Assembly (NCBI GenBank): GCA_964535555.1
Contig: CAZHUS010000036.1
Location: 337 to 64,336 of the forward strand
DNA length: 64,000 nucleotides
From: an uncultured Verrucomicrobiota bacterium
GTDB lineage: Bacteria > Verrucomicrobiota > Verrucomicrobiia > Limisphaerales > J093
Direction: 5' to 3'
In this document: one piece after another, positions 4,833 to 57,863 of the stretch
Layout of the letters: every line of letters begins with the position of its first letter
Position numbering within the stretch: position 1 is the first letter of the stretch
Position numbers and translations under genes: made by a program
Notes under the pieces: generated by a model
Database searches by the model: none
What the model was told of the DNA's origin: nothing
The model's input: the letters and a program-made list of their open reading frames with translations, nothing else

Positions 4833-7250
4833 ATGCACGCTCTTCGTAATCCCATCGGCCGGATTGCCGGATTCGCGGTTGTGGCTTCAGCCCTGCTTCA
4901 CGCCGGTGAAGGTCCCCCTGCCGGAAACACGGACCCAGCCAAAGTGAGCCTGGAAGCCGTTCGTGCTGAGACACACGAACCCGAGCCCAACATCCGCGTG
5001 GCACCCGGGGTTCTGCGTGTCAGCCGCCGGGGAGTCCTCGCCGAGGAACTTACCGTATGGCTGAAATTCGAGGGAAGCGCGACACCCGGACAGGACTATG
5101 AGGTGCTGCCGGCCCAGGTGACCATTCCCTCCCACCGCGAAAGCCTCGACCTGCTGGTGACCGCGCTGGATGACGAAATCGGTGAAGGACCGGAGACCGT
5201 GGTTGCGCTGCTCCAGCCGGATCCGGGGATGGGACCTCGCGAGCGCTACACCATCGAACCTGGAGCCGCCGCGGCCAAGGTGCAGATTTTCGATGGCCAC
5301 TCCGCCCCGCGAACTTCCGTCAGAATCACGGCACCCCTGCCGGGAATGCGCTTCCGGCAAGGCGAGCCGATCGCGATCGAAGCGGTCGCGATCGACTCCG
5401 CCGGGTTCATTGAGGCGCTCGATTTCTTCGCTGACGGCGAAAAGATCGGCGAATCGGTTCTCGCCTGGCCGGCCTGCGTGGGCTGTGAGCCCAAGCCAGG
5501 CGATCCAGCGAAGCATGCGTTCATCTGGAATGCCCCGCCCGCGGGCAGGCATGAACTCTGGGCGACGGCCTCGCACCGCTTGATACTTGCGCCGTCACCG
5601 GAGGAGGAAACGATCGACCCCCCGGCCACAAGCGTCCCGGTGGAGGTCAACGTTGTTGGAATGCCCTCCTCGGTGCGGTTCGCCGTCCACGCGACGCGAC
5701 CAGTCGCCGAGGAATCCTCCCTGCCGTACAAGCGAATTCCCCTGACAGGCGAACTCGTGATTTCGCGTACCGGTGATCTCGCGCAACCCGCCGCGGTCTT
5801 CGTCCAATACGAGGGCGAGGCGAAAGCCGGCGTCGATTACGAACCGCTCCCCTGGCGGGTTGAGATCCCCGCCGGAGAACGCGCCGTGGCGCTCGAGGTC
5901 AGGGCCATTCCTGACGAAGTGACCGAAGGCGCCGAGAAGCTGGTGGCGACACTTTCAGTCTGCCCGCCGTCCCTGGACCCTCCTTCGGAGCTTCCTTGCC
6001 TCGATGTGGACATCAACCCGGAGTTCGCCTCGGCGGGGATTGTGCTTTGCGATGACGCCCGCTGCGGACGCTCCGCATCGCTCGAACTCACGCATCCCCG
6101 GCCGGGCACGAAATACCGCGCCGGCGAATCCGTTCCGGTCCGCGCGGTGGCGATCGATCCGTTGGGCGCCATCTATCGGGTCGAGTTTTGGGCCGGCGAA
6201 GAGCGCGTCGGTGTCTCGGAACTGTGGACCTTCCGCGAGCCCGATCCCGGTGACCCCATGCACCACGAGTTCGTCTGGAAAGGAGCCCGGCCCGGCACGC
6301 ACCTTCTCACCGCCCGCGCCACGGATTCCGCAGGAGCACCGCTCGTCTCTGCGCCGGTCGAGGTGACCATCGTGACATCGCCGGCCTTGAAGGTCAGCAT
6401 TCTGACGCCTCCCAAGGGCGCGGTGTTTGGGCCGGACGACGCGGTGGAAGTCCACGCGGTGGCTTCGAGCGAGTCAGCCCGAATCCAGCGGCTTGAGGTC
6501 TACGGTGATGACAGCTTGCTGGGATCGACTGACTCAGGCGAACTCAAGGTCTCCTGGGACCAACCGCCCTTGGGAGTTCACAAGCTCATCGCGCGTGCGA
6601 GCAGTGACGACGGTCAAACGGCGACCTCGGAACCCGTGCGGTTCCTCGTTCGCCCCGAGCCGGCGCGCGGTTACGTGGAGCGGAGCTTGCCGCCGACCTA
6701 CACACCGGGGCAGAGCCTCGAAGTCCTTCTCGCCTCCGCGCCACCCCAGGGAGCCCAGGCGTGGGCCGTCGCCGACCGGCCACCCGCGGGTTGGAGTGTT
6801 TCCGATATGAGCCCGGGGGGAAGCTGGGACGCCGCGTGGGGAGTCGTGAGGTTCGGGCCTTTCTCGGATACCCAGACCCGGACGCTCAGCTACCAGGTGC
6901 TACCGCCTGAAGCGTCCAAGGACCGCCAGGTCTTCTCCGGAAAGGCCTCGGTGGACGGGAAGGTAAGCCTGATTCGGGGCGACCGGCTCATCCTCCCCAG
7001 CAGAACGGCCCCCGACCCCGCCGAGCCGGCTTTGACTTTTCGAGGGTACCACCGCCAGGGCCAGGAGATCCGCTTCGAAGTGGGCGGAAAACCCGGCGTC
7101 GTCTGTGAGATTGAAGTCTCGTCTGACCTGAAGCGCTGGGAGCATCATTCGACTGTCTTTGTCCTGGAGGATGGCACCGTCCCGGTCATGGAGGACCGCC
7201 CCTCGGAAAATCGGCGCTTTTTCCGCGCGCGCCCGGTCAGTGAACCATAG
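4833..7250 (+). CDS. Secreted multidomain protein: two Calx-beta + Ig-like pairs, a further Ig-like and a cohesin-like domain, and a C-terminal domain
   Basis: N-terminal signal-like segment; G.A..G.DY Calx-beta motifs; repeated 'AVAIDxxGxIxxV(D/E)FxAxxE(K/R)(I/V)G' Ig units; ends EVSSDLKRW...RFFRAR. Confidence 0.8.
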   Translation: MHALRNPIGRIAGFAVVASALLHAGEGPPAGNTDPAKVSLEAVRAETHEPEPNIRVAPGVLRVSRRGVLAEELTVWLKFEGSATPGQDYEVLPAQVTIPSHRESLDLLVTALDDEIGEGPETVVALLQPDPGMGPRERYTIEPGAAAAKVQIFDGHSAPRTSVRITAPLPGMRFRQGEPIAIEAVAIDSAGFIEALDFFADGEKIGESVLAWPACVGCEPKPGDPAKHAFIWNAPPAGRHELWATASHRLILAPSPEEETIDPPATSVPVEVNVVGMPSSVRFAVHATRPVAEESSLPYKRIPLTGELVISRTGDLAQPAAVFVQYEGEAKAGVDYEPLPWRVEIPAGERAVALEVRAIPDEVTEGAEKLVATLSVCPPSLDPPSELPCLDVDINPEFASAGIVLCDDARCGRSASLELTHPRPGTKYRAGESVPVRAVAIDPLGAIYRVEFWAGEERVGVSELWTFREPDPGDPMHHEFVWKGARPGTHLLTARATDSAGAPLVSAPVEVTIVTSPALKVSILTPPKGAVFGPDDAVEVHAVASSESARIQRLEVYGDDSLLGSTDSGELKVSWDQPPLGVHKLIARASSDDGQTATSEPVRFLVRPEPARGYVERSLPPTYTPGQSLEVLLASAPPQGAQAWAVADRPPAGWSVSDMSPGGSWDAAWGVVRFGPFSDTQTRTLSYQVLPPEASKDRQVFSGKASVDGKVSLIRGDRLILPSRTAPDPAEPALTFRGYHRQGQEIRFEVGGKPGVVCEIEVSSDLKRWEHHSTVFVLEDGTVPVMEDRPSENRRFFRARPVSEP

Positions 7251-32257: not shown

Positions 32258-32268
32258 CTCCGCGTCCA

Positions 32269-34086
32269 ATGTCCATTCCCGCTGCTCCCTGGTTGCCGCG
32301 AGTCTTCCCCGTGCTGGGACGGCGGCTGGTGGTGATCGATCCGGGACGGGAGTTCATCAAAGTGCTGGTGGTGGATCACGGTCTGTTCCAGCCGCGGGTG
32401 GTTCATTTCGAGACGATCGTCCCGTCCGAGGCCCCGGGCGCGGTGGTCGAGGACATGGAAGCCGAGCTCGACCGGCTGCTGGCGCAGACCGGCGCTCACG
32501 AGCGTGTCCTGGTCCTGCCGCAGTACCGGGCGATTGCCCAAGTGGTTGAGGCGCCCTCGGACACCCCGGCTGAGATCCGCGCGGCCTTGATCCGCGAGGC
32601 CCGGCGCCTGAGCGGCTTGGACGAAGGCGGAATGGCGTTCGACGCCCAACAGCTCCGCCCCTTCGGCCGCTACCAGCGTCCCTCGTGGCTGACCCTATGC
32701 AAACGCGAGGAACTCGACTCCTTGCTGGGACGGTTTGCCACCACCCGGAGCGAGGCCGGGGCACCGGTCGAGGATATCGTCCTGGCCGAGGTGACGACCA
32801 GCGGGCAGGCGCTGTTCGCCGCTGCGCACGCGTTGGGTCCCGAAGCCAGGAGCGCCGTGCTGGTGGATCTCCGCGCCCACAACAGCGTCATCGCCATCGT
32901 TATCGACGGGCAGGGCGTTCAGACCACGACCATCCCGACCGGTTCCATCCAGTTCCACACGCCGGGCGCCTCCGGCCCGTCAGATCCCGGCCGGAGGACG
33001 GATGATCCGGCCTTCAAGGTGTCCCACACCAATGTGGAGGCCGCCGCCGCCGCCTTGCGCAAGTGGGGGGGTGAGATCCGGCTGGCCGTGAGTGAATGGC
33101 TCGAGGACAATCCCGAGTGCCGCCTGGCCTTGAGCGATCTGCCGGTGTTTCTGTGCGGCGTGGGGGCGACCCAGCCAGGCCTGATCGAGTTCCTCAACAC
33201 CCTGGGGCCGCTGCGGTTTGTGGCTTGGGAACACCGCGTCACCAGCGGTCGGCCCTGGCCCATGGCGGACTACCTGGTGCCCTACGGAGCCGCGTTGCTC
33301 GCCTTCCAGCGCGCGCCCCACGGGGCCTCGTTCCTGCCCGCCGAGGATCGATCCGTCAAACACCGGCGCCGCACCCTCGCGCGCCTGCAAAGCTCCAACG
33401 TGCTCCTGATGGTGCTGCTCGTTGCCTTGCTGGGCTTCGCGATCCACCAGAAGCGCGACCTCGTTCAGCGGAAACGGGAGATCACCGCCCGCGCCCAGGC
33501 GTCCTTGCAGAGCGCACTGGCCATCGACCAGGCGTACCGCGAGCTGAACCAGCACTACGCCGAGGTCCTGCCCATCCTCGAGCGTCAGCGTTCCACGATG
33601 GAGGCGCTCCAGACCCTCGCCGCGGTCCGCTCTGCCCGCACCAACGACGATTTCTGGTACGTGCTCTTCGCGGATGCGACCAGTTACGCGACGGGACGCA
33701 CCGGCGTCGCCGTCGAAAGTCCGCCCGGAGATCCTCCGCCCGCCGCCAATCCGACCTCGGCCTCCGCGTCACGCGAATTCGTCGTCGAGGTCTGCACTCC
33801 CCACGATGGCGAACGCCAGCGGCGGATCCTCAGTGACCTGGTATCAACCCTGAAACGCGAGGTCATCTTCCGCCGCGTCGACGCCCTCCCCCCCGAACGC
33901 AAGCGGGACTGGCTCGCCACGAACGTCTACGTCTCGAACCACGTGTTCGCCATCGCCATGGAGGTGGCCGGCAATGAGCTGCCGCCAGTCTCCTCCCTCG
34001 CCCCGGCAGCACCGGAAACCACGCGTGACAACCGGCGCCCCGGCACGGCGCGCAACCCCGCGCCGGCCGAGCCACCCCGTCGCTGA
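32269..34086 (+). CDS. PilM/PilN (GspL-like) fusion, assembly platform protein
   Basis: N-terminal VIDPG actin-like start, LVDL, FLCGVGA...PGL; then a TM helix and coiled periplasmic PilN-like region. Confidence 0.7.
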   Translation: MSIPAAPWLPRVFPVLGRRLVVIDPGREFIKVLVVDHGLFQPRVVHFETIVPSEAPGAVVEDMEAELDRLLAQTGAHERVLVLPQYRAIAQVVEAPSDTPAEIRAALIREARRLSGLDEGGMAFDAQQLRPFGRYQRPSWLTLCKREELDSLLGRFATTRSEAGAPVEDIVLAEVTTSGQALFAAAHALGPEARSAVLVDLRAHNSVIAIVIDGQGVQTTTIPTGSIQFHTPGASGPSDPGRRTDDPAFKVSHTNVEAAAAALRKWGGEIRLAVSEWLEDNPECRLALSDLPVFLCGVGATQPGLIEFLNTLGPLRFVAWEHRVTSGRPWPMADYLVPYGAALLAFQRAPHGASFLPAEDRSVKHRRRTLARLQSSNVLLMVLLVALLGFAIHQKRDLVQRKREITARAQASLQSALAIDQAYRELNQHYAEVLPILERQRSTMEALQTLAAVRSARTNDDFWYVLFADATSYATGRTGVAVESPPGDPPPAANPTSASASREFVVEVCTPHDGERQRRILSDLVSTLKREVIFRRVDALPPERKRDWLATNVYVSNHVFAIAMEVAGNELPPVSSLAPAAPETTRDNRRPGTARNPAPAEPPRR

Positions 34087-34091
34087 AACGC

Positions 34092-34943
34092 ATGCCTTCC
34101 GCCGCTTCATCCCGGACCTCGCGCCTGCGCTTCTCCGAAGCCACCGCCTTGCTCACCCTGCTGCTCGCGCTGGTGTTCGTGCTTGGCTTCGAGCCTGTCG
34201 CCCGGCGGGCCAGCCTGATGGACCAACCCCTGCGTCATGCGTGGGAGGCCTTCGCCCGCACCAATCAGTCGAGCCTGGCCACCGCCGGCGTCCCCGAGGA
34301 CAGACTTCCCGCACGGCTTGAGGCCATCCAGGCCACCGCCACCGAACTCGACGACCTCCGCCGCCTCGCGTTCCAGCGCATCGAATTGACCCCGGAGGTG
34401 GCGGACCGGATCCAGGCCCCCTTCCAGCTGATCGATTTTGACAACGAACGGCTGCGCATCGCGGACGAACTTGCCGCGCTCGGCAAGGCCAAGAAGGTCC
34501 CGATCCAGCCCGCGGCCCTCGGCGGGCTGCCCCGCTATCCGTCGGAATCGGCCCCGGCGTTCCTCTGGCCGCGGCTCCACATCGCGCAACAGGCGCTGCT
34601 CACCGCGGCGCACTGCGAAGTTGCCGGCATCCTCGAACTGAGCCAGCTGCCGCCCGTCACGCACCGCAGCCCCATGGACGGCCGGCGCCTTTATGAAGAA
34701 CTGCGGATGCGACTGGAAGTGGCCGGAGCCGCTGAACCGCTGGGACGCTTTCTCACCAGCCTGCCCCTCCGGGGAGAGGAACTCAAAGCCACCGGCCTGG
34801 CGGAGATCCTCACCAACAAACCCGCGCTCTTCGTCAGTCAACTCCTGATGCGCAAAGCCGCACCCGACCGGCCCAACGACGCGCGCCTTGAACTGGTGAT
34901 CAGCGGCTTCGTGCCTTCGGCCGGTCCGCGGCGAGCGCTTTGA
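34092..34943 (+). CDS. PilO/GspM-like platform protein
   Basis: Single N-terminal TM, coiled coil and ferredoxin-like C-terminus (MRLEVAG...LELVISGF); operon position. Confidence 0.6.
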   Translation: MPSAASSRTSRLRFSEATALLTLLLALVFVLGFEPVARRASLMDQPLRHAWEAFARTNQSSLATAGVPEDRLPARLEAIQATATELDDLRRLAFQRIELTPEVADRIQAPFQLIDFDNERLRIADELAALGKAKKVPIQPAALGGLPRYPSESAPAFLWPRLHIAQQALLTAAHCEVAGILELSQLPPVTHRSPMDGRRLYEELRMRLEVAGAAEPLGRFLTSLPLRGEELKATGLAEILTNKPALFVSQLLMRKAAPDRPNDARLELVISGFVPSAGPRRAL

Positions 34944-34958
34944 AGCAGGTTGCCTCCG

Positions 34959-35462
34959 ATGACGCCCAGCCTCGAACGAAGCCTCTGGATCTCGGCCGGC
35001 GTCCTCTCCGGCCTGCTGGTCCTGTTGGTCCTCACGGTCTACCGCGTCGGCGGCAACGTCCCCGCCCTCCGTCCGCTCGGCGGGACGAATCGCCTCGGCC
35101 CGGCCGCCCTCCCTGTCGACGCCGCCAACGAGTGGTTTCAACCCGCTCAACTCACCCGCTTGATCGGCCAGACGAACTTCCCCAATCCGTTCTATACCGC
35201 TCACTTCGCGCCGCCGCCGCCGCCCAGCACCAAGCCGGTCGAGCTCACTTACCTGGGCTTCATGGACAGCGACAACCGGCCCCGCCGCGCCCTCGTCCAG
35301 GTGAACAACGCGACCCAACTCCTGACCAACGGCAGCCGTCTGGTCGCCGACCACGTCGTCAAGGACATCGCCCGTCGAACCCTGACCCTCACCAACGGCG
35401 CCAGCATCACCAACGTGCTCGAGTTCCGCATCAAGAAGGTCATCGAAGTCCCCGCCCAGTGA
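34959..35462 (+). CDS. PilP/GspC-like bitopic protein
   Basis: One TM, NPFY...PPPP linker, 'LTYLGFM...RALVQV' beta domain; operon position. Confidence 0.55.
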   Translation: MTPSLERSLWISAGVLSGLLVLLVLTVYRVGGNVPALRPLGGTNRLGPAALPVDAANEWFQPAQLTRLIGQTNFPNPFYTAHFAPPPPPSTKPVELTYLGFMDSDNRPRRALVQVNNATQLLTNGSRLVADHVVKDIARRTLTLTNGASITNVLEFRIKKVIEVPAQ

Positions 35463-37231
35463 ATCCCGTGAACCCCCCTGAAGAACCCCGGCGCGAGGTG
35501 GGCGACGTCCTCCTCGCCGCCGGCAAACTGGACCCGGAACAGCTCGAACTCGTCCGCCGGCGTCAGAAACGACTCCGGACTCCCCAACACGAAGCCCTGG
35601 TTGAACTGGGCTTCGCCTCGGAGACCGACACCTACTCCGCCCTCGCCAGCCTCCACGGCCTCGAGTTCGTTGACCTGTCCAACTTCAACTTCCCCCCGGG
35701 ACTGCCGGACGAAAAGCTGTTCCCTCTGGCCGTCGTTCATAACCACCGCGTCCTGCCCCTCACGATCGACGAAACCTCGATCACCGCGGCCTTTGTCGAA
35801 CCGCCCCGCCAGACCGAACTGGGCAACCTCCGCCTGCTGGTGAACCGCCAGATCAAGCCGGTCCTCACGACCCCAAGCTGCTACCGCGACGTCGTTCGCC
35901 GGCACCTCGGCCTGGGTGCCGAAACCATCCAACGCATGGGCGAGGACCGGGAAGGCCAGGAAGGATCCCCCGACATCGTCTTCCAGGTCGGAGCGGGCGA
36001 GGATGATGCCGCGGTCAGTGCCGGTGTCACGCGCTACGTTGATCTGCTCCTCGCCGATGCCCTTCGCCTGGAAGCCACGGACATCCACATCGAACCCTAC
36101 GCCTCGCGCATCAAGCTCCGGTACCGCGTGGATGGCGTCATGCAACCCATCACCGCCCCCGAGAGCCTACGCCAGGTCTACGGGGCGCTCGTCTCCCGGT
36201 TGAAAATCATGGCCGGGCTCAACATTGCCGAGAAGCGCCTTCCGCAGGACGGGCGTATCTCCATGAAGACCGACGCCGCGGCCTATGACCTGCGCGTGTC
36301 CATCGTCCCCAGCAAACACGGGGAGGCCGTCTGCCTTCGCATTCTCGGCCGGCACAGCCTCCTGCTTGACCTGCGCGAACTGGGCCTCGAGGCGGAGCAG
36401 GAACACATGCTCCGTTCTCTGACGCGCCTGCCCCAGGGCCTGGTCCTGCTCACCGGCCCCACCGGCAGTGGCAAGACCACCACGCTCTATGCGGCCCTAG
36501 CCAACGCCAACGACGAAGGCCGCAAAATCATCACCATCGAAGATCCGGTCGAGTACCAGCTCGAGGGTATCGTTCAGATCCAGACCAAGGACGACATCGG
36601 GCTGGATTTCGCCGCCGGGCTGCGTTCCATCCTGCGCCACGACCCGGATGTGATGCTCATCGGTGAAATCCGCGATCGCGAGACCGCCGACATCGCCGTC
36701 CGGGCCGCGCAAACCGGCCACCTGGTCTTCTCGACCCTGCATGCCAACGACAGCGTCAACGTGATCACCCGCCTTTTGGACATGGGGATTGACCCCTTTC
36801 CACTGGGCTCGGCCCTCGTCTCCAGCATCGCCCAGCGGCTGGCCCAGCGGATCTGCCGTCATTGCGGCGGACCCGACGACGAGATCGCACCCGAGGTGCG
36901 GGCGGAGATTGCCGCGGCGCTCCGGCTCGACCCGGCCCAGGTGCGCGCCTCCCGGGGGCGCGGCTGCGTGGAATGCAACGGGAAGGGCACGCGCGGTCGG
37001 GTTGCCATTTACGAGTTCTTCCTGATGAGCGAGGAAATCGCCGATCTCTTCGGTCCCAATCTGACCACCGGGCACCTCCGCAACGCGGCCCGGCAGCAGG
37101 GCTGGCGTTCGTTGCGAGACCAGGCCTGGAAGAAGGTCCAGCAAGGCCAGATCCCCATCGCCGAAATCCAGCGGCTTACCTTCCGGATCCAGCAGCCGAA
37201 CGTCCAGCCCCTCCTCGCGCTGGTGCCGTGA
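35459..37231 (+). CDS. GspE/PilB secretion/pilus assembly ATPase
   Basis: MshEN-like N-terminus; ATDIHIEP, RYRVDG, LPQDGR, GPTGSGKT, EDPVEY, LRHDPD, GHLVFSTLH, CxxC...CxxC. GTG start overlaps the upstream stop. Confidence 0.95.
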   Translation: MNPVNPPEEPRREVGDVLLAAGKLDPEQLELVRRRQKRLRTPQHEALVELGFASETDTYSALASLHGLEFVDLSNFNFPPGLPDEKLFPLAVVHNHRVLPLTIDETSITAAFVEPPRQTELGNLRLLVNRQIKPVLTTPSCYRDVVRRHLGLGAETIQRMGEDREGQEGSPDIVFQVGAGEDDAAVSAGVTRYVDLLLADALRLEATDIHIEPYASRIKLRYRVDGVMQPITAPESLRQVYGALVSRLKIMAGLNIAEKRLPQDGRISMKTDAAAYDLRVSIVPSKHGEAVCLRILGRHSLLLDLRELGLEAEQEHMLRSLTRLPQGLVLLTGPTGSGKTTTLYAALANANDEGRKIITIEDPVEYQLEGIVQIQTKDDIGLDFAAGLRSILRHDPDVMLIGEIRDRETADIAVRAAQTGHLVFSTLHANDSVNVITRLLDMGIDPFPLGSALVSSIAQRLAQRICRHCGGPDDEIAPEVRAEIAAALRLDPAQVRASRGRGCVECNGKGTRGRVAIYEFFLMSEEIADLFGPNLTTGHLRNAARQQGWRSLRDQAWKKVQQGQIPIAEIQRLTFRIQQPNVQPLLALVP

Positions 37232-46997: not shown

Positions 46998-49676
46998 ATG
47001 ATACCAACCCGAAGCACCTCACGCCTGGCCCGGACGGTGGCCACGGCCCTCACCGCAGCCGCCGCTCTGGCTCTCCCCGCGACCACCCAGGCGGCACTCA
47101 GCGATGGCCTCGTCTCCTACTGGCCGCTCGATGACGTGGTCGGCACCAAGACGCCCGACCTCGCCAGCGGTTACGACATGGAACTCGCCAACCTCACCGC
47201 GGCCGACCTGGTCGCGGGCAAGGTGGGCCGTACGTTCAAGCTGGAGAATGCGCGCCAAACCATGCTGCGACGGGTCAACCAACCCGGCGAGCAACTCCCC
47301 ATCAACCAGCACCCCGCCCTCTCCCTCTCGATGTGGGTGAACGTCACGGGGACGGGCCTCAGCGACCTGCGGATCTTCTCGGAAGGAAACACGGCCAACA
47401 ACAACCCCCTGTTCAACCTGGGCACGGCCAACACTGGCAATGACGGCAGCCTGGACATCTTCTTCCGCCAGAGCCCCTGGACTGACGTGAACCACATCCG
47501 CAGCGTGGGGCAACCGCTCGACGGCACCTGGCATCACGTGGCGTTCGTGCAGCAGGCCGACGGCACCCGGACGCTCTTCATCGACGGGGTCAGGGATGCC
47601 CTCGAGATCCCGGCCAAGCCTGAAGGTGCCTGGAGCCTGAACACCACCACCATCGGAGGCATCCTGCGCGCGAACCCCACCCACTGGCTGACGGGCATGG
47701 TGGACGAGGTGGCCCTCTGGAAGCGCGCCCTCAGTGATGCGGAAGTCACGCAGGTGTTCAGCGAAGGTCTGGACAGCGTGTTCCCGCCGCTCACCAAGGC
47801 CATGGTCGCCTACTGGCCTCTCGACGAGGTCTTCGGCACCAAGACCCCCGACCTGGCCAGCGGTTACGACATGGAACTGGCCAATCTCACCGGCGCCGAT
47901 CTGGTGGCCGGCAAGTGGGGCAAGGCGATGAAGCTCGAAAATGCGCGCCAGACCATGCTGAAGCGGGTCAACAACGCCGGCGAACAACTCCCGATCAATC
48001 AGCACCCCGCGCTGTCGATCTCGATGTGGGTGAACATTGTTGGCACCGGGCTCACCGATCTCCGGATCTTCTCCGAAGGGAACACCGCCAACAACAACCC
48101 GTTGTTCAACCTCGGCACGGCCAACACCGGCGCCGATGGGTCGGTCGACTTCTACTTCCGGCAGACCGGCTGGACCGAGGTCAACCACCTCCACAGCGTC
48201 GGCCAGCCCTTGGATGGCACCTGGCGCCACCTCGTCTTCGTCCAGCAGGAGGATGGCACCCGCGCGTTCTACATCGATGGCGTCAAGGATGCCGTTGAAA
48301 TCCCGGCCAAGGAGGCGGGGGCGTGGAGCGTGAACACCACCACCATCGGCGGCATCCTGCGCGCCAATCCCACCCACTGGCTCACCGGTCAGGTCGACGA
48401 TGTGGCGCTCTGGAAACGAGCCCTGGCCGAGGCGGAAATCACCTCCCTCTTCCAGAATGGCACCCCCGTGCCGTTTTCGGTGCCCCAACCGCTCGCCATC
48501 CGCTCCTTCAAGTCCGACCTCCCGGCTGTGGGCGTTGGCGATTCCATCTGGCTCCGCTGGGATGTCACCAAGAACGTCACCGTTGAAATCGATCAGGGTA
48601 TCGGCGACGTCACCCCCCTCACCGTGTCGGGTCTGGGGGCGGTCCAAGTGCCCATGACCACAAGCCGCACTTTCACGCTCACGCTCCGGCGGGGCGTCGA
48701 GACGCTTTCCCAGCAGCTCACGGTTTCGGCCATCAGCGGAATCGCCGAAGGCTGGACGTTGCTCGACAACTTCGACCGCTACCCTCTCGGCCTGCTGAAC
48801 GGTCGGGGCGGCTGGGGAGACCTCGATGCCGTGGACTTCACCCTGGTGGATGTCAACGGGAACGTCATGGTGGGGGCCAATGCTGGCGATGCCACCGCCA
48901 CCCTGCCCCTCGGCCCGCTGACAGTGACCGAAGGGCTGCAACGCACCTTGTTCTTCCGCGTTTATCAGACGGGTGAAGCGTTCGAGACGGCCAAGGGCAT
49001 GGTGGCCTTGACCGACCGCAACGTCCGCTTCGGAAGTGACGTCGGCGCGAATGGCAACGACATCGGCCCCGGCGCGATCGCCAGCACGGAATGGAGCGGC
49101 GCGCTCCAACTCGGCGGCGCCAACGGCAACGGCGCGGCCGTGGACTTTTACGACCCGCTCCTCGACTTCCAGACCGTGTACAACGTCTGGGTGGACATCA
49201 CCAACGGTCCGTTGATTGCGGACCCGTTCTCAAGCGGTGACACCTACTCCATCTATGTCGCCAAGGAAGGGGTGGCGCAGAGAACCACCGTCCTCACCGG
49301 GTACGCCTCGGCCCGCGGCCCGGGGGCTGCGGATGTGGGCTTCGCCACCAAAGACCTGAACAAGCTGTTGCTCGGAGGCCTGAATGGGACCAGCACCACC
49401 ACCAACTTGTTCTTTGATGACATCTATCTCAGCAAGGCAGGGTTCCTCACCACGGTGCCCCGGCCCTTCGGCTTCACCACCCCGGTTCCGCCGCCCGCCG
49501 GCGACATCACCATGGCGATTGCCCGGGACGGCAGCCAGGTGCGGGTGACTTGGAGCGCCGGTTCCCTGGAGTCGGCTCTGGCCGTCACCGGTCCCTGGAC
49601 CGCGGTCGCCGGCGCCGCCTCACCCTACACCGCCACGCCTTCCGGAGGGGCCTTGTATTACCGGGCCAGGCAGTAA
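46998..49676 (+). CDS. Secreted protein with two tandem LamG-like domains, Ig-like region and C-terminal domain
   Basis: Signal peptide ending TQA; two near-identical units (YWPLD...W(H/R)H.....Q...DG.R..(F/Y)IDG...G.VD.VALW.RAL); ends GGALYYRARQ. Confidence 0.88.
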   Translation: MIPTRSTSRLARTVATALTAAAALALPATTQAALSDGLVSYWPLDDVVGTKTPDLASGYDMELANLTAADLVAGKVGRTFKLENARQTMLRRVNQPGEQLPINQHPALSLSMWVNVTGTGLSDLRIFSEGNTANNNPLFNLGTANTGNDGSLDIFFRQSPWTDVNHIRSVGQPLDGTWHHVAFVQQADGTRTLFIDGVRDALEIPAKPEGAWSLNTTTIGGILRANPTHWLTGMVDEVALWKRALSDAEVTQVFSEGLDSVFPPLTKAMVAYWPLDEVFGTKTPDLASGYDMELANLTGADLVAGKWGKAMKLENARQTMLKRVNNAGEQLPINQHPALSISMWVNIVGTGLTDLRIFSEGNTANNNPLFNLGTANTGADGSVDFYFRQTGWTEVNHLHSVGQPLDGTWRHLVFVQQEDGTRAFYIDGVKDAVEIPAKEAGAWSVNTTTIGGILRANPTHWLTGQVDDVALWKRALAEAEITSLFQNGTPVPFSVPQPLAIRSFKSDLPAVGVGDSIWLRWDVTKNVTVEIDQGIGDVTPLTVSGLGAVQVPMTTSRTFTLTLRRGVETLSQQLTVSAISGIAEGWTLLDNFDRYPLGLLNGRGGWGDLDAVDFTLVDVNGNVMVGANAGDATATLPLGPLTVTEGLQRTLFFRVYQTGEAFETAKGMVALTDRNVRFGSDVGANGNDIGPGAIASTEWSGALQLGGANGNGAAVDFYDPLLDFQTVYNVWVDITNGPLIADPFSSGDTYSIYVAKEGVAQRTTVLTGYASARGPGAADVGFATKDLNKLLLGGLNGTSTTTNLFFDDIYLSKAGFLTTVPRPFGFTTPVPPPAGDITMAIARDGSQVRVTWSAGSLESALAVTGPWTAVAGAASPYTATPSGGALYYRARQ
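47100..48470 (+). repeat. Intragenic tandem duplication, period 693 nt (231 aa)
   Basis: TACTGG at 47118 and 47811; near-identical peptides KTPDLASGYDMELANLT and EGNTANNNPLFNLGTANTG in both units. Confidence 0.92.
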
Positions 49677-52944: not shown

Positions 52945-55800
52945 CTACCGCGTCGCCCGGTAGAACTTCTGCGGTCCCGCGGTGAGCGGGTCCACGGTGA
53001 CCGTCTTCTGTGGCAGGTTCGTGAATGGACCGGTCACGGTGTCCGCGACCTGGAGCGTGCTGTCCGTGGTGATGGTCACCTGGCCGTTGGCGGCCCGGCT
53101 CACGTTGATGGTTGGCAACGCGACCAGGTTCAGGACCTCGAGGGTGAACCCATCCAGGATGGCGTTCGGATCCGTCAGGTCCTCACGCGTGGCTGCCGCG
53201 GCGTCGAGCACGATGTAGAGATTGTCGCGCTGCGTGACAATCTCGAACGAAACCATGGCACAGGAGTTGATGATGTTCACCGTGCCACCCTGGGTCTCCG
53301 TGGGAACGAAGTTCTCCGCGACCAGAGCGCCGTCCGCGTACACGTTGAAGCCACGGTTCGCGCAGCACTGTTCGTAGAAGAACATCTGGCACTTGTAGGT
53401 GCTGCCCGGGAACAGCCCCGTCAGGCGCACACTCACCGTGGGGCTGTAGCGGATGGACTGGGTGACTTTCTCCAGCACATCATCGGCGGGACTGTCGCCG
53501 TAGGCCGGTTGGTCCCAGGCGGCAACATTGTTCGCCGCGGTCACCGTGACACCCGCAACGTTGTCGGCGGTGAAGTCGGCGTCGTAAGCCTTCCCGGCAG
53601 GACCCGCCGTACTCACGTTCACGGCGTAAAGGAACGTGCCGGCGAAATCCGCCCCCGGCGTTGCGTTCCACTGGGCGTCCAATCCTTCGCCCGGATCGCC
53701 CCCGGTGAGGGTCTCGATCCGGATCTTGCTGATCTGAGACGGGGCGTCCGCCGGGTTGGTGCCGGCCGCGACCTCGGCGCCGTCCGTCACGCCGTCGCTG
53801 TCCGAATCCCGCTTGAGCGGGTTGGTGTGGTAGGTGTTGACCTCCGCGCCATCCTTGAGTCCGTCCGCGTCAGTATCCGCATTGGCGGGATTCGTATTGT
53901 GAGTCTTGATCTCCTCGCCGTCCTTGAGGCCGTCCTTGTCCTGGTCGGCCTTGGTGGGGTCGGTGTAGTTCACAAACTCGTCCAGGTTGGTCAGGCCATC
54001 CGCGTCCGTGTCAGCGCTTGCTGTCTGATTGAGGTTCCCAAACACTTCGTTCTCCCAGGCATCGGGCAGGCTGTCGCTGTCCGAGTCGGCTGGAGGTGAG
54101 ATGACCTCGATCGTGGCCGCCTGGAGCAGGGCATTGTGGTCTGTCAACTCCGGAAGGGTCACACCGCGGCCGTCGAGGAGCGCGGTCACGACGTTGCTGC
54201 GTGCCACGAAGCTGTGGGTGAGAACCGCGCCGCTGTTCTTGGTGAAACCACCCTGGTAGAACTGCGGGCTGAAGTCGTCGGCAACCTGGTGAGCGTCCAC
54301 GAACACGTCAAACCCTCGCGGCCAGCCTTCCTCGGCAGCGATCAACTGGAGCTTGTAAGCCCCTCCGGCCTGCAGGTTGGCGAATTCGAGCAGGACATTT
54401 GGCTGCGCCGCATTCGCCGCGTCGCTCCAGCGAATGGTGTTCATGAACAACTCGAGCACGTCGTCATTCGGGGTGTCACCAAACACCGGATTCGGATGCC
54501 AGTTCACCGCGGTGTTTTGGGCAAGCACCGTCACTCCCTCGACCGCATCCTCCGTGAAGTTCGCGTCGCGAATCTGGCCCGCGGCGGGCGTGGTTCCCAG
54601 GTGGATCGCGTACAGGAAATCCCCGTCCAGGTCCAGGCCTTCGCCGGCATCGCCGCCGGTGAACCGGCCCACCGAGGTGTTCTTGGGCTTGCTGTCGGCG
54701 TCTTTGGGATCGGTGAGCAGTCGCAACTCGTCGTAGTCGTTGGCGGTGTCACCATCGGTGTCACTCTTCAGCGGGTCGGTCAGGGTCGTATTCACCTCGG
54801 TGCCGTCCTTGATGCCGTCACTGTCCGTATCGGCCTTGTTGGGATCGGACTTGGTGGTGTTGACTTCCACATCGTCGTTCAACGTGTCCTGATCCGTATC
54901 CTTCTTCAGCGGATCGGTGAGGTGCGTTTTCACCTCCGCCCCATCCAGCAGGCCGTCCTCGTCCGAATCCGGCTTGGTGGGATTGGTCGACTTGGTGAAC
55001 TCGCCGCTGTTGTCGAGGCCATCGCTGTCCGGATCGCCACTGCCGGTCTGGCTCAGGTTGCCGAACTGCTGCGTTTCCCAGGCGTCGCTCAGGCCGTCGC
55101 CGTCGCTATCGCTCGCCGTCGAGGTTTTCTCGAGGGTGACGCCGCTCAGAATCGCGTTGTGATCCGTCAACTCCGCGGTCGAGACGGATCGGCCATCGAG
55201 CACGATCTCGAGGACCGGGCTATCGGCCATGAACTCCTCGGTGACCACGACGGCAGACTCGGGAACGTTCGAGCCGCCCTGGAGCGCGCCCGGGGCGACT
55301 TCATCCGCAACCAACGCACCGTTCAGGTACACGTCGAAGCCGCGGTTGATGCAACAGCCCTCGCCGAAGAGCAACTGCAGCTTGTACCGCGCGCCCACCT
55401 CGATGCCGGCCAGTTGGACGGTCACAACCGGCGTGGCCGACGCCGCATCGCTCCAACGGATGGAACGAATGACCAGTTCCATGACATCATCGGCCGGGGT
55501 ATCCCCGTAGGCCGCCGCCGTGTTCCAGTCGACGATCTGGTTGCCGGCCGTGACCGTGACGCCGGCAACGTTGTCGCCGGTGAAGTCCGCATCACCGGCC
55601 TTTCCGGCGGCGCCATACGGGCCAATGTTGATCGCGTAAACGAAGTTGCCCTGCAAATCGAGCCCTTCATCCGGATCGCCTCCGTAAAACAGACCAACAG
55701 TCGCCGCACCCGACGCGGGAGCAGCGGAAAGCAGGGCGCCAACGGCCAGGGCGCACAGTCGCGGCAGGAACAAGGGTTCTTTCGGTGCTGGGGTGCTCAT
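52945..55800 (-). CDS. Large secreted protein: three copies of a ~190-aa beta-rich domain separated by TSP3-like DxDxDG repeats, plus C-terminal domain
   Basis: Signal peptide; repeats GGD.(D/G)EGLD...YA...; D(S/T)DxDGL.D..E......TxP...D repeats; ends PQKFYRATR. Start MSTP at 55800. Confidence 0.88.
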   Translation of the reverse strand: MSTPAPKEPLFLPRLCALAVGALLSAAPASGAATVGLFYGGDPDEGLDLQGNFVYAINIGPYGAAGKAGDADFTGDNVAGVTVTAGNQIVDWNTAAAYGDTPADDVMELVIRSIRWSDAASATPVVTVQLAGIEVGARYKLQLLFGEGCCINRGFDVYLNGALVADEVAPGALQGGSNVPESAVVVTEEFMADSPVLEIVLDGRSVSTAELTDHNAILSGVTLEKTSTASDSDGDGLSDAWETQQFGNLSQTGSGDPDSDGLDNSGEFTKSTNPTKPDSDEDGLLDGAEVKTHLTDPLKKDTDQDTLNDDVEVNTTKSDPNKADTDSDGIKDGTEVNTTLTDPLKSDTDGDTANDYDELRLLTDPKDADSKPKNTSVGRFTGGDAGEGLDLDGDFLYAIHLGTTPAAGQIRDANFTEDAVEGVTVLAQNTAVNWHPNPVFGDTPNDDVLELFMNTIRWSDAANAAQPNVLLEFANLQAGGAYKLQLIAAEEGWPRGFDVFVDAHQVADDFSPQFYQGGFTKNSGAVLTHSFVARSNVVTALLDGRGVTLPELTDHNALLQAATIEVISPPADSDSDSLPDAWENEVFGNLNQTASADTDADGLTNLDEFVNYTDPTKADQDKDGLKDGEEIKTHNTNPANADTDADGLKDGAEVNTYHTNPLKRDSDSDGVTDGAEVAAGTNPADAPSQISKIRIETLTGGDPGEGLDAQWNATPGADFAGTFLYAVNVSTAGPAGKAYDADFTADNVAGVTVTAANNVAAWDQPAYGDSPADDVLEKVTQSIRYSPTVSVRLTGLFPGSTYKCQMFFYEQCCANRGFNVYADGALVAENFVPTETQGGTVNIINSCAMVSFEIVTQRDNLYIVLDAAAATREDLTDPNAILDGFTLEVLNLVALPTINVSRAANGQVTITTDSTLQVADTVTGPFTNLPQKTVTVDPLTAGPQKFYRATR

Positions 55801-55906
55801 GCTGATACGGCTTTCTGTTGATGGGTTGACTCCGCGCGACCGCGTGTACCCTCCGCGGGGCGCAGCCCACGTAGAGGTCCACAAGGTCTTTCAGGATTGC
55901 TGTGGC

Positions 55907-55979: not shown

Positions 55980-57863
55980 TCATGGCTCGGAAGCCTCGGT
56001 GCCGAGAATGTCCTTGAGCAAGCGCGGGACCAGCTCGCTCATTCGCGTCGAGACGCCCGGGAGCGTGGTGGGGAGCTTCCGCAGGTCCGGAAACACTGGT
56101 TTCACCTTCGCGCCGAGCGCATCCAAGGCGTTCAACGCCTCGACCGCAAGGTACAGCCCGGATCTTTCGAGGCTCGCCAGAGGAACCAGCGTCTGAAGCG
56201 CGCGGTCCACGTCTTCCGCCTCTCCAAAGGCGCCCAGCGCCTGGGCAGCGGCGATCCGCACCGAACCGGACGGGTCCTCCAGGGCCTTTCGCAACGCCTC
56301 GCGTCGAGCGAGTACCGCCTCAGCTCCCCGGACCTGCAGACCGGTGATCGCCCAGAAGCGAACGCCGGCGTCCGTGTCGGAAAGGTCCCGCTCGTCCGCT
56401 CCGGGGTCGGTTCCTGTGGGCATCGACGCCCGTTCCGCAGCCTCGAGGATCCGCTCCAACGGGTAGCGGCCGGGATCATGCCCGAGGTCGTACGGCGCCA
56501 CCGTCCCCCGGCGCGACTGCATTTCCGCCTCCGGAAGGAACCCCAGATCGCGAGTGGCAAGGAGCTGGCTTCGCAAGGCCGCGCTCAGACGGGCTTTGAC
56601 GTTCTGCAGGCCTGGCGAGCCGGCCAGGTTGACGACCTCGTCCGGGTCGGTCTGCAAATCGTAGAGCTCCTCCGGCGCCTTGCGCTGCCAGAAATAGGCC
56701 TGTGCCGGCGGCAAGGCGCCCTCGTCGTAAAGCTTCTTCCAGGCCCGGGTCGAAGGGGTCACGAACATGTAGGCGACATGCTGGCCATGCGGAAGATCCG
56801 GACGGTAGTTCCGCACGTAGACGAACCGGCCGTCCGTCACGCTTCGCACCAGATCGATGCGTTCATCCATCCGGCCACGATAGCCAAAGTTGAAAGGTCG
56901 CGATGCGGAAGCGTGCTCGCCCATGAACGCCGTTCCCTGCATCCAACGAGGCGCCTTGAGGCCTGCAAGGCTCAACACCGTGGGCGCGAGGTCGACGAAA
57001 CTCACGAGTCGATCCGAACGCCCCCCGGCTTGATACTCGGGCGGCGCGAGCGCGCGCCACTTCTCCGGCACGTAAACGATCAACGGGACACTCAAACCGG
57101 AGTTGTAGGGAAACCGCTTGCAGCGCGAGATCCCGGGGCCGTGATCGCCGTAGAAGAAGACGATCGTGTCCTCGGCCAACCCGGCTTCCTCCAGCTCTCT
57201 CAAGTTGGCCCCGGCCAGGCTGTCCATCTCCGTCACCTTGTCATAATACTGGGCCCAGTCCTGCCGCACCTCCGGGATGTCCGGATGGTAGGCGGGCACA
57301 CGCACGCGCGCCGGATCATGCACCTGCGTGTGCGGACGAAGGCGGATCTGGCTTTCGTGAGTCACCGTGTGGTTGAAGACGGCGAAGAAGGGCTGACCCG
57401 CACCACGGTTCTTCCAATGCGCGCGCCGGGACGATTCGTCCCAGACCTTGCCTGGCTTTTCGAGGTTGTAATCCTCCTTCTCGTTGTTGGAGCAGTAATA
57501 GCCCGCGCCTCGGAGGAACTGCGGGTACATCTGGAACCCGGACGGGAGCGGCACGAGGCTGCGCATGTGCTCCGACCCCGTTGAAGGCGGGTACAGCCCG
57601 CTGATGATCGCCGTGCGCGCCGGGGCACAGACCGGAGCTCCGGACCAGGCGCGGGTGTACATCATGCCACGAACGGCAAGGCGATCCAGGTTGGGAGTGG
57701 TGGCGAAACGGTCGCCGTAGCACCCAAGCTGCGGTCCCGTATCCTCGCACGTGATCCAGAGGATGTTCGGGCGCGGAGTGCCGGTGGCGACCGCCGCGCG
57801 AACGGCGACAACCGCGGAGGCGAGGGCGAAACTGAGCAGCAGCGTTTTCATGCGCAAACCCAT
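55980..57863 (-). CDS. Formylglycine-dependent sulfatase (S1) with C-terminal HEAT-like repeats
   Basis: PNILWITCED, CAPARTAIISG (CxPxR), FFYGDHG, ELYDLQTDP.E..NL; helical 'VRFWA..GL', 'VRIAAAQAL'. Confidence 0.95.
   Translation of the reverse strand: MGLRMKTLLLSFALASAVVAVRAAVATGTPRPNILWITCEDTGPQLGCYGDRFATTPNLDRLAVRGMMYTRAWSGAPVCAPARTAIISGLYPPSTGSEHMRSLVPLPSGFQMYPQFLRGAGYYCSNNEKEDYNLEKPGKVWDESSRRAHWKNRGAGQPFFAVFNHTVTHESQIRLRPHTQVHDPARVRVPAYHPDIPEVRQDWAQYYDKVTEMDSLAGANLRELEEAGLAEDTIVFFYGDHGPGISRCKRFPYNSGLSVPLIVYVPEKWRALAPPEYQAGGRSDRLVSFVDLAPTVLSLAGLKAPRWMQGTAFMGEHASASRPFNFGYRGRMDERIDLVRSVTDGRFVYVRNYRPDLPHGQHVAYMFVTPSTRAWKKLYDEGALPPAQAYFWQRKAPEELYDLQTDPDEVVNLAGSPGLQNVKARLSAALRSQLLATRDLGFLPEAEMQSRRGTVAPYDLGHDPGRYPLERILEAAERASMPTGTDPGADERDLSDTDAGVRFWAITGLQVRGAEAVLARREALRKALEDPSGSVRIAAAQALGAFGEAEDVDRALQTLVPLASLERSGLYLAVEALNALDALGAKVKPVFPDLRKLPTTLPGVSTRMSELVPRLLKDILGTEASEP

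What the first reader, a model, noticed from the sequence alone, without database searches (positions are those of the whole stretch)
49490..49676. Shared C-terminal '(F/Y)(F/Y)RA' domain on three unrelated secreted proteins: possible sorting signal
Seen: three large signal-peptide proteins with unrelated bodies end in a similar 55-75 aa module after a Pro-rich or short linker. Calx-beta protein (about 7020-7250): RQGQEIRF...IEVSSDLKRW...RFFRAR. LamG protein: RDGSQVRVTW...LESALAVTGPW...LYYRARQ. TSP3 protein (52945 to about 53120, minus): RAANGQVTIT...LQVADTVTGPF...KFYRATR. Shared pattern: R-x(1-3)-G-x-(V/I)...(L/I)(E/Q)x(A/S)xx(V/L)...(W/F)...[FY][FY]RA near the C-terminus. Inference: the layout parallels the T9SS CTD, so this may be a lineage-specific export or surface-sorting domain. 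The T2SS-like operon at 30128-37231 is one candidate machine, but no link is shown. I recall similar tails on other verrucomicrobial proteins but no mechanism.
Basis: partly seen in the sequence, partly recalled or inferred. Interest (0 to 1): 0.72.

Follow-up and report, generated by a model that had tools for sequence, protein, structure and literature searches.

The report
Shared C-terminal Ig-like tail module
Three unrelated secreted proteins in this window end in the same small, undescribed beta-sheet module, which caps thousands of large surface-type proteins, mainly from Verrucomicrobia; it probably docks or sorts them at the cell surface, but it is a cut-down immunoglobulin-like repeat and not a proven export signal.

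Summary
Proteins A (4833-7250), B (46998-49676) and C (52945-55884, minus) have unrelated bodies: Calx-beta/Big_7, LamG, and TSP3/malectin. Each ends in a 54-67 aa all-beta module that finishes on an aromatic-aromatic-Arg strand.

- **Detection:** profiles built without the window sequences find only these three tails among the window's 583 ORFs. B and C belong to one subtype and A to a second. The two subtypes match profile-to-profile (94.6%, E 6.7e-8).
- **Family size:** no Pfam or NCBIfam model covers the module, yet it has 12,324 cluster representatives.
- **Position:** all 43 copies in Verrucomicrobia loci, and 85 of 87 single-copy top hits, stop within 0-4 residues of the protein end.
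- **Carriers:** mostly proteins with signal-peptide-like N-termini and diverse adhesin or lectin bodies.

The T9SS-like sorting idea is only partly supported. The module also occurs as tandem pairs and arrays. It matches the core of 94-aa Ig_7-like internal repeats in giant proteins, two of which carry their own T9SS sorting domains. So 'FYR' is a fold signature, not a signal motif. No conserved neighbour gene and no link to the secretin operon was found.

My best reading is a C-terminal surface docking or anchoring module (about 0.45).

The parts
4833..7250 (+). Protein A, 805 aa. Signal-peptide-like N-terminus (MHALRNPIGRIAGFAVVASALLHA), a Calx-beta and Big_7 body, and an A-type tail.
   Evidence: ORF. 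Pfam Big_7 E 1.2e-23 and Calx-beta E 3.2e-15. Signal-peptide heuristic.
7065..7235 (+). A-type tail module of protein A (GQEIRFEVGGKPGVVCEIEVSSDLKRWEHH...NRRFFRARP). It is followed by 4 residues and the stop codon, and preceded by a Pro-rich linker (APDPAEPA).
   Evidence: A leave-window-out A-type profile gives E 6.5e-6 over HMM positions 3-56. AF2 gives 6 beta strands at pLDDT 77.5. hhalign to the B/C subtype gives 94.6%.
46998..49676 (+). Protein B, 892 aa. Signal-peptide-like N-terminus, two tandem LamG_3 domains, an unannotated region, a Pro-rich linker and a B/C-type tail.
   Evidence: ORF. Laminin_G_3 E 1.3e-30. Signal-peptide heuristic.
49512..49673 (+). B/C-type tail module of protein B (MAIARDGSQVRVTWSAGSLESALAVTGPWTAVAGAASPYTATPSGGALYYRARQ). 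The stop codon follows directly.
   Evidence: Leave-window-out profile gives E 3.7e-21, 70 bits, over HMM positions 1-55. AF2 with an 89-sequence alignment gives pLDDT 94.2 and 5 beta strands.
52945..55884 (-). Protein C, 979 aa from the TTG start at 55884. The signal-peptide-like start is the ATG at 55800. It has three malectin-like units with TSP3 repeats and a B/C-type tail.
   Evidence: ORF. TSP3_bac E 1.4e-25 and Malectin E 9.9e-6. Signal-peptide heuristic.
52951..53106 (-). B/C-type tail module of protein C (NVSRAANGQVTITTDSTLQVADTVTGPFTNLPQKTVTVDPLTAGPQKFYRAT). One more residue (R) and the stop codon follow.
   Evidence: Leave-window-out profile gives E 7e-12, 40 bits, over HMM positions 2-54. 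BLASTP against the B tail gives 33% identity, E 1e-4. A near-identical tail sits on a different upstream sequence in P0001.

Best explanation
The three tails are homologous copies of an undescribed, roughly 55-65 aa all-beta module.

**What is shown.** The module is a cut-down immunoglobulin-like domain. It matches the central part of 94-aa Ig_7-like bacterial repeats and ends on their 'aromatic-aromatic-Arg' strand. It has no counterpart of the roughly 20 residues that follow that strand in the repeat. I read those residues as the last Ig strand, but I did not check this against coordinates. In the sampled MAGs, mostly labelled Verrucomicrobia (Pedosphaera/Limisphaerales type), it is shuffled onto many large Sec-exported adhesin- or lectin-like proteins with unrelated bodies. 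It usually follows a Pro-enriched linker, and the protein stops 0-4 residues after the last strand.

**What is inferred.** The module most likely works as a common C-terminal docking or anchoring handle. After Sec export, the folded tail binds a shared partner at the cell envelope (an outer-membrane or surface scaffold protein, or an envelope polymer). This holds diverse binding domains on the cell surface, much as dockerins, SLH or other wall-binding modules do in other bacteria. Tandem copies would add avidity. I think a pure, cleavable export signal of the T9SS type is less likely.

Confidence that the module is real, homologous and C-terminally biased is about 0.95. The confidence given below is for the docking or anchoring function.
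For: **Homology and reality:**

**Family size and annotation:** 12,324 representatives at E<=1e-3 and 3,494 at E<=1e-10. No Pfam, NCBIfam or PDB sequence match.

**Terminal position:** 43 of 43 copies in the window and 33 genome loci, of which about 28 are labelled Verrucomicrobia, Pedosphaera or Limisphaerales. 85 of 87 single-copy top hits end 0-3 aa from the end. In 30 of 41 copies exactly 3 residues follow the R. In multi-copy proteins of this type the last copy is still terminal.

**Bodies:** diverse and mostly binding or adhesion modules, including LamG_3, Ig_3/I-set, PA14, Big_7, LRR, cadherin, Calx-beta, TSP3 and VWA. Signal-peptide-bearing enzymes in the window, such as the sulfatase at 55980-57863, lack the tail.

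**Independent conservation:** median tail identity is 45% between body-unrelated pairs and 50% between body-related pairs.

**Linker:** Pro is 13% in the 20 aa upstream, against 5.9% in the rest of the same proteins.

**Signal peptides:** signal-peptide-like N-termini in 30 of 38 and 36 of 55; none in 6 cytoplasmic controls.

**Copy pattern:** tandem C-terminal duplicates are typical of anchoring modules and not of export signals.

**Fold:** compact 5-6 strand beta fold, pLDDT 94.2 and 77.5. Relation to Ig_7-like repeats: hhalign 97.1%, E 5.8e-11, with no counterpart of the segment after YYRV.
Against: - No partner, receptor or localisation data exist.
- No neighbouring gene family recurs across loci.
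- Foldseek matches are all non-significant. I could not inspect coordinates, so strand topology and an exposed edge strand remain inference.
- The same fold serves as a plain internal repeat in giant proteins, two of which have their own T9SS CTDs. The terminal position could therefore reflect descent of a 3' cassette rather than function.
- An orphan 55-aa copy without a signal peptide exists.
- The top-150 list is ranked by summed score, and the loci were selected through the tail. Both proportions are therefore biased samples.
Confidence: 0.45

Rival explanations
1. The tail is a lineage-specific export or sorting signal that works like the T9SS C-terminal domain. An outer-membrane translocon or shuttle recognises it, carries the Sec-exported cargo across the outer membrane, and possibly cleaves the tail off.
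For: - Near-obligatory extreme C-terminal position.
- Sits on signal-peptide-bearing, unrelated cargo.
- Many copies per genome.
- A small beta-sandwich of CTD-like size, with RgpB/T9SS CTD structures among the best TM-scores (5hfs 0.59, 7pq4 0.61, 5ag8 0.57).
- A secretin plus GspE-like ATPase cluster lies in the same window.
Against: - Tandem and internal copies exist. To my knowledge T9SS CTDs are single.
- The homologous motif is an internal repeat in cargo that carries its own CHU_C or Por_Secre_tail, so the motif is not itself a signal.
- No sequence match to TIGR04183, PF18962 or PF13585.
- Foldseek E-values are 4-7, and Fn3-like domains match equally well.
- No conserved cleavage motif is visible in the variable linker.
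- No co-located machine.
- Secreted enzymes in the window lack the tail.
- T9SS is confined to the Bacteroidota/FCB group (my knowledge).
Confidence: 0.2
2. The tail is just a generic extracellular Ig-like structural, spacer or ligand-binding domain with no sorting or anchoring role. Its terminal position and fixed distance to the stop codon are inherited. A 3' cassette (module plus stop) spread by duplication and recombination among paralogous surface-protein genes.
For: - Remote homology to ordinary internal Ig_7-like repeats.
- Arrays of up to 28 matched stretches.
- Mixed A-type and B/C-type copies within one protein (P0106).
- Within-genome similarity of tails (JACQWK loci).
- An orphan remnant and a split gene show that the 3' cassette is evolutionarily mobile or fragile.
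- No partner gene found.
Against: - A generic domain would not be last in about 97-100% of single-copy carriers across 12,000 clusters with unrelated bodies.
- Tail conservation is as high between body-unrelated proteins as between related ones. This implies purifying selection on the tail itself.
- Loss of the final segment relative to the parent repeat suggests specialisation.
Confidence: 0.3
3. The resemblance is chance, or a compositional effect in a 65% GC genome, and there is no shared module.
For: - The bare four-residue motif is expected about 0.75 times per window.
- A does not match B or C by BLASTP.
Against: - Leave-window-out profiles hit only these three tails, at E 3.7e-21, 7e-12 and 6.5e-6.
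- There are 12,324 family representatives.
- AF2 gives a confident fold.
- Profile-to-profile match of 94.6%.
Confidence: 0.01

Closest known systems
T9SS C-terminal sorting domains: type A (Por_Secre_tail, PF18962/TIGR04183) and type B (CHU_C, PF13585)
   Same: Both are small C-terminal beta-sandwiches on Sec-dependent, multi-domain, unrelated cargo, present in many copies per genome. The protein ends right after the last strand. RgpB CTD structures give TM 0.57-0.61 to the B-tail model.
   Different: - No sequence match.
- The tail has 54-67 aa and 5-6 predicted strands, against about 70-100 aa and 7 strands for the CTD (CTD figures from my knowledge).
- It occurs in tandem and internally.
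- Homologous repeats coexist with genuine T9SS CTDs in the same proteins.
- The carriers sampled from genomes are mostly Verrucomicrobia MAGs, which are not known to have T9SS (my knowledge).
- No machine or cleavage is known.
Ig_7 (PF19081, 'Ig-like domain CHU_C associated') and Ig_3/I-set-type bacterial Ig repeats
   Same: They share the motif W-Q-S-A..GPW.D[IV].GA[TS]..Y......[FY]YR[VAL]. hhalign of the tail profile against the 94-aa repeats of P0094/P0097 gives 97.1%, E 5.8e-11, over 41 columns. The Ig_7 hit in P0097 (539-627) encloses a module match (564-605).
   Different: - The tails themselves do not reach any Pfam Ig model, even at E<=10.
- They lack the roughly 18 aa before and roughly 20 aa after the core. 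I read these as the first and last strands.
- They have a 6-residue hairpin insertion.
- They are terminal rather than serial.
Dockerin/cohesin and other C-terminal surface-anchoring modules (SLH, wall-binding repeats)
   Same: This is a functional analogy only. In each case one small module is appended, mostly C-terminally and sometimes in tandem, to many unrelated secreted proteins through a flexible linker, and tethers them to a common scaffold.
   Different: The fold is unrelated: the tail is all-beta, while dockerin is a Ca-binding helical repeat (my knowledge). No cohesin-like partner has been identified here.
PEP-CTERM/exosortase sorting signal (TIGR02595), which occurs in Verrucomicrobiota (10.1101/2023.06.07.544157)
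   Same: Both are C-terminal tags on many secreted proteins of the same phylum.
   Different: The tails have no PEP motif, no hydrophobic helix and no basic terminal cluster (read directly from the sequences). They give no NCBIfam hit. The tail is a folded domain, not a membrane anchor.

Membership tests
T9SS CTD type A (Por_Secre_tail, PF18962/TIGR04183) | Sequence match to the family model | tested here: not met
   No hit for the three full proteins at E<=0.1. No hit for 40 B/C-type and 8 A-type tails at E<=10 in Pfam, nor for the 40 B/C-type tails in NCBIfam.
T9SS CTD type A (Por_Secre_tail, PF18962/TIGR04183) | Seven-stranded Ig-like beta-sandwich of about 70-100 aa | tested here: inconclusive
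   AF2 gives 5 strands in 54 aa (pLDDT 94.2) and 6 strands in 74 aa. Foldseek to 5hfs, 7pq4 and 5ag8 gives TMq 0.57-0.61 but E 4-7. Fn3-like domains match equally well.
T9SS CTD type A (Por_Secre_tail, PF18962/TIGR04183) | Single copy, strictly at the C-terminus | tested here: not met
   The module is terminal in all three window proteins and in 85 of 87 single-copy hits. However, 63 of the top 150 proteins have 2-28 stretches, including internal ones.
T9SS CTD type A (Por_Secre_tail, PF18962/TIGR04183) | Host encodes the T9SS machinery (SprA/Sov, PorV, PorU and others) and the CTD is cleaved | not testable with these tools
   Only 64 kb of the genome is available. No such gene was seen among the 10 window ORFs I scanned. 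There are no proteomic data.
T9SS CTD type B (CHU_C, PF13585) | Sequence match to the family model | tested here: not met
   No hit. CHU_C is present as a separate terminal domain in P0092, downstream of the repeats that resemble the tail.
PEP-CTERM (TIGR02595) | PEP motif, then a transmembrane helix, then a basic cluster at the C-terminus | tested here: not met
   The tails end ...[FY][FY]R[AVL][KR]x with no hydrophobic stretch. No NCBIfam hit.
Ig_7 / Ig_3 / I-set bacterial Ig-like domains | Match to the Pfam model above its gathering score | tested here: not met
   No Ig model was reported for any tail at E<=10.
Ig_7 / Ig_3 / I-set bacterial Ig-like domains | Remote homology to bona fide members | tested here: met
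   hhalign of the tail profile against Ig_7-annotated 94-aa repeats gives 97.1%, E 5.8e-11. The repeats were found with the tail profile, so this test is not fully independent.
Ig_7 / Ig_3 / I-set bacterial Ig-like domains | Complete sandwich including the first and last strands | tested here: not met
   The alignment covers template columns 35-77 of 111. The tail stops where the repeat continues for about 20 aa. The strand assignment is inferred, because I could not inspect coordinates.
T2SS substrate linked to the secretin operon at 30110-37228 | A demonstrable genetic or phyletic link between the tails and the secretin/GspE cluster | tested here: not met
   The cluster holds a secretin (E 1.3e-29), two unknown ORFs and a T2SSE/MshEN ATPase (E 2e-120). 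No secretin or ATPase recurs near tail genes in 33 loci: the ATPase has one homologue in one locus. Genome-wide profiling was not possible.

The most novel reading that the evidence does not exclude
The 'FYR tail' is the recognition handle of an as yet unknown outer-membrane export or surface-attachment pathway of Verrucomicrobia. It would be a functional counterpart of the T9SS CTD or the dockerin, derived from an Ig-like repeat by loss of its last strand. The exposed aromatic-aromatic-Arg edge strand at the free C-terminus would dock by beta-strand augmentation onto a shared envelope receptor, for example a barrel protein, a secretin-associated factor or a pseudopilin-like protein. If so, a linear, transplantable address tag for surface display would exist in a phylum where none is known.
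Probability: 0.2. Interest if true: 0.8.

Novelty: new variant of a known kind. Interest (0 to 1): 0.52.

Why it matters
Verrucomicrobia are abundant in soil, freshwater and the sea, and they encode many giant surface proteins. How these proteins reach the cell surface and stay there is poorly understood.

A 55-aa module sits at the very end of thousands of such proteins, and the copies of Pfam and NCBIfam searched here have no model for it. That makes it a concrete, testable handle.
- It defines a candidate surface proteome by sequence alone.
- It could serve as bait to find the envelope partner.
- It may be usable as a tag for surface display.

Even if it turns out to be only a structural domain, a family model would improve annotation of more than 12,000 protein clusters. 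The finding also shows that 'FYR' endings are a fold signature shared with Ig_7-like repeats.

Tried and rejected
**Searches that gave little or nothing**
- Word-indexed homologue searches with short tails were nearly blind: 1 hit and 4 hits. The 40-tail alignment returned only fragments of 102 aa or less.
- Exact look-up of protein B found no source contig.
- Five literature searches found no description of this tail. The search for the motif strings returned only unrelated text.
- PDB sequence search gave only sub-threshold CBM32/discoidin and GH32/43 'S.D...W' matches (E 0.02 or worse). I judged these to be motif coincidence.
- Foldseek on both models gave no match at E<=0.001.

**Tests that came out negative**
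- Clustering of neighbour genes in 33 loci found no conserved partner. It turned up only common PVC genes: FG-GAP/ASPIC, DUF1559 with N_methyl pseudopilin-like proteins, sulfatase and oxidoreductase.
- 'Stand-alone tail proteins' were mostly artefacts. P0017 is a split gene. P0064 is a genuine orphan ORF of unclear meaning.
- The context of P0093, a protein with five tandem copies, was uninformative.

**Technical notes**
- I rejected PEP-CTERM, T1SS (the proteins have Sec-type N-termini) and a membrane anchor (no hydrophobic C-terminus).
Full report
**1. The observation**

The window (65% GC) encodes three large proteins with unrelated bodies.
- A: 4833-7250 (+), 805 aa, Big_7 E 1.2e-23 and Calx-beta E 3.2e-15.
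- B: 46998-49676 (+), 892 aa, two Laminin_G_3 domains, E 1.3e-30.
- C: 52945-55884 (-), 979 aa, TSP3_bac E 1.4e-25 and malectin.

Each has a signal-peptide-like N-terminus by a simple heuristic. That heuristic gave no call for six cytoplasmic window proteins and did call the sulfatase and the secretin. Each protein ends in ...[FY][FY]RA. Among 165 six-frame ORFs of at least 150 aa, only these three end this way. About 0.75 would be expected by chance, so the motif alone is weak evidence.

The profile evidence is strong. An HMM built from 38 tails of other organisms hits the last 54 residues of B (E 3.7e-21) and the last 53 of C (E 7e-12). No other ORF among the 583 in the window scores better than E 0.016. 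An HMM of 15 non-window A-type tails hits only the end of A (E 6.5e-6).

B and C are related by plain BLASTP (33% identity, E 1e-4). A is not detectably related to either. A belongs to a second subtype ('...YxLExSSDLKxW....D......RFYRA'). Three results link the subtypes:
- hhalign of the two subtype profiles gives 94.6% probability, E 6.7e-8, over 52 columns, the whole module.
- Intermediate sequences exist, such as P0131 and P0084.
- An A-type HMM absorbs the B/C type within three iterations. It then scores A at 5e-13 and B at 2e-4.

**2. What the module is**

No Pfam or NCBIfam model covers the tails. This holds for the full proteins, for 40 B/C-type and 8 A-type tails scanned in Pfam at E<=10, and for the 40 B/C-type tails scanned in NCBIfam. 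A profile search of PDB sequences gives nothing significant.

AlphaFold2 on B's 54-aa tail with an 89-sequence alignment gives pLDDT 94.2 and five beta strands. A's 74-aa tail with 18 sequences gives pLDDT 77.5 and six strands. Foldseek against the PDB finds no match at E<=0.001. The best TM-scores (0.54-0.66) go to Fn3-like modules, designed minimal Ig domains, CBMs and the T9SS CTDs of RgpB. The fold is therefore a small Ig/Fn3-like beta-sandwich with no specific structural relative.

A full HMMER scan of 1.84 billion cluster representatives finds 12,324 proteins at E<=1e-3 and 3,494 at E<=1e-10. The highest-scoring ones are giant proteins with 11-28 matched stretches. In P0094 and P0097 the matches recur every 94 aa, inside repeats of the form '...vCvGGs..LtA.vtGGSs..tLQWQS....GPWtDIsGaT...Y.aPT..G.YYRV.V.D...C..P.S..v.v.V'. 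Pfam calls the P0097 repeats Ig_7, 'CHU_C associated'.

hhalign of the tail profile against these repeats gives 97.1%, E 5.8e-11. It aligns the tail from the 'W' strand to 'YYR', with a 6-residue insertion. The repeat continues for about 20 more residues where the tail stops. P0092 and P0095 carry similar arrays and end in genuine T9SS sorting domains, CHU_C and Por_Secre_tail. The tail is a truncated derivative of such a repeat. The strand assignment is my inference.

**3. Where it sits**

A pattern scan of 185,579 species genomes with the B/C alignment returned 33 loci. About 28 come from MAGs labelled Verrucomicrobia, Pedosphaera or Limisphaerales. The rest are labelled only 'bacterium', one Omnitrophota, and one 'Akkermansia' record that is near-identical to a Pedosphaera MAG. 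Up to 7 loci came from one genome.

Local HMM iteration over the six-frame ORFs of these loci plus the window found 43 B/C-type copies. All lie at the ORF end, 0-4 residues from the stop, except one at 13 residues. Ten of the 43 lie in genes other than the ones used to fetch the loci. A few further A-type tails also turned up. This suggests a high copy number per genome, but the estimate is biased because the loci were selected through the tail.

Among the top 150 representatives, 87 have a single copy, and 85 of those end 0-3 residues from the protein end. In 30 of 41 locus copies exactly three residues follow the Arg.

The bodies are diverse: 33 Pfam families in 36 proteins. These are mostly binding or adhesion modules, including LamG_3, Ig_3/I-set, PA14, Big_7, LRR, cadherin, VWA, CotH and LTD. 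Of the 561 protein pairs, 386 share no body similarity. Even so, their tails are 45% identical at the median, against 50% for body-related pairs. The 20 residues upstream are Pro-enriched: 13% against 5.9%. Signal-peptide-like N-termini occur in 30 of 38 locus and window proteins with an intact N-terminal region, and in 36 of 55 long representatives. Several of the misses are visibly mis-called starts.

**4. What argues against a pure sorting signal**

63 of the top 150 proteins have two or more stretches. That list is ranked by summed score, so it is biased towards multi-copy proteins. The multi-copy forms include:
- tandem C-terminal pairs, such as P0114 and P0101;
- five tandem copies after a short body (P0093);
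- copies interspersed with other domains (P0098);
- a B/C-type copy directly followed by an A-type copy and then Ig domains (P0106).

In these Verrucomicrobia-like proteins the last copy is still terminal. Several apparent exceptions simply end in an A-type copy. Internal and terminal copies keep the same F[WY]R[LV]R ending.

No gene family recurs beside tail genes in the 33 loci. Only common PVC genes appear. Nothing links it to the tails. Signal-peptide-bearing enzymes in the window, such as the sulfatase, lack the tail.

**5. How it most likely works**

*Shown.* This is a conserved, independently shuffled, almost always terminal folded module. It sits on Sec-type, adhesin-like proteins behind a Pro-enriched linker.

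*Inferred.* It most likely serves as a common C-terminal docking or anchoring handle that holds these proteins on the cell envelope through a shared partner. Tandem copies would add avidity, as with dockerin or SLH modules. I put this at about 0.45.

*Rivals.*
- A T9SS-like export signal (about 0.2). Tandem and internal copies, coexistence of the homologous repeat with real CTDs, and the absence of a machine all weaken it.
- A generic Ig-like domain whose terminal position is inherited as a 3' cassette (about 0.3). The near-universal terminal position across unrelated bodies, and body-independent conservation, weaken it.
- Chance (about 0.01). Refuted.

**6. Comparison with known systems and novelty**

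The tail works most like a C-terminal sorting or anchoring module, but it fails the membership tests:
- T9SS CTDs: no sequence match, and not single-copy.
- PEP-CTERM: no PEP motif and no transmembrane helix.
- Pfam Ig models: no hit.

It is a remote, truncated relative of Ig_7-like repeats. Five literature searches found no description of it. I rate it a new variant of a known kind: an undescribed family of Ig-derived C-terminal modules. Interest is moderate. The family is large and the positional rule is striking, but the function is unproven and the fold is ordinary.

**7. Limits**

- The loci and the top-150 list are biased samples.
- The signal-peptide calls are heuristic.
- I could not inspect model coordinates.
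- No whole genome, phyletic profile or experiment was available.
- The organism behind the window is not identified. It is inferred to be a verrucomicrobium from the relatives of its tails and from PVC-typical genes such as DUF6807, 3-keto-disaccharide hydrolase and sulfatase.

Noticed in passing
L034:6001-6168 (+): An orphan 55-aa ORF (P0064) consists of the tail module alone. It has no signal peptide and no body, and lies between glutamate dehydrogenase and glyoxalase genes. The same ORF is on 9 contigs. It is either a remnant or a stand-alone mini-protein.
   Followed up: partly
L036:3212-6222 (+): A 905-aa PA14/Ig/Big_7/GH115_C body and a separate 73-aa tail ORF (P0017) lie 72 nt apart on the same strand. 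This looks like a gene split by a frameshift, a nonsense mutation or an assembly error.
   Followed up: partly
window 30110-37228 (+): A cluster of a secretin (PF00263), a 605-aa ORF and a 283-aa ORF without Pfam matches, and a T2SSE ATPase with an MshEN domain. No pseudopilin or GspF-like gene was seen in it. It could be a type IV pilus/MSHA-like or an atypical T2SS module.
   Followed up: partly
window 46998-48500 (+): Protein B contains two tandem LamG_3 units of about 230 aa that are highly similar to each other (LSDGLVSYWPLDDVVGTKTPDLASGYDMELANLT... repeated). This looks like a recent internal duplication.
   Followed up: no
window 52945-55884 (-): Protein C is built from three malectin-like units (GGDP.EGLDL.G.F.YAI...) with runs of bacterial TSP3 Ca-binding repeats between them. 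It gives weak NCBIfam matches to CglD and the Amuc_1099 family through the TSP3 repeats.
   Followed up: no
L021 versus L024: The contig labelled 'Akkermansia muciniphila' MAG (CAMAWP010000415) encodes a 1347-aa tail protein almost identical to one from a Lake Baikal Pedosphaera MAG. The label probably reflects mis-binning or contamination.
   Followed up: no
window 28459-29622 (-): An ORF fuses two PhoU domains to a low-molecular-weight phosphotyrosine phosphatase domain. It lies next to a phosphate-binding PBP_like_2 gene (27561-28625). This is an unusual fusion in a Pho-type neighbourhood.
   Followed up: no
P0094, P0097, P0092, P0095 (representative proteins): These giant proteins carry arrays of repeats with the 'LQWQS..GPWtDIsGaT..Y..PT..G.YYRV' core. 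The period is 94 aa in P0094/P0097 and about 264 aa, together with GEVED domains, in P0095. Pfam models cover them only in part.
   Followed up: partly
L007:1026-2099 (-), L016:14752-15786 (+): Prepilin-type N_methyl (with or without DUF1559) pseudopilin-like genes recur near tail genes in a few loci. They are very common in PVC genomes, so this is probably coincidence.
   Followed up: no
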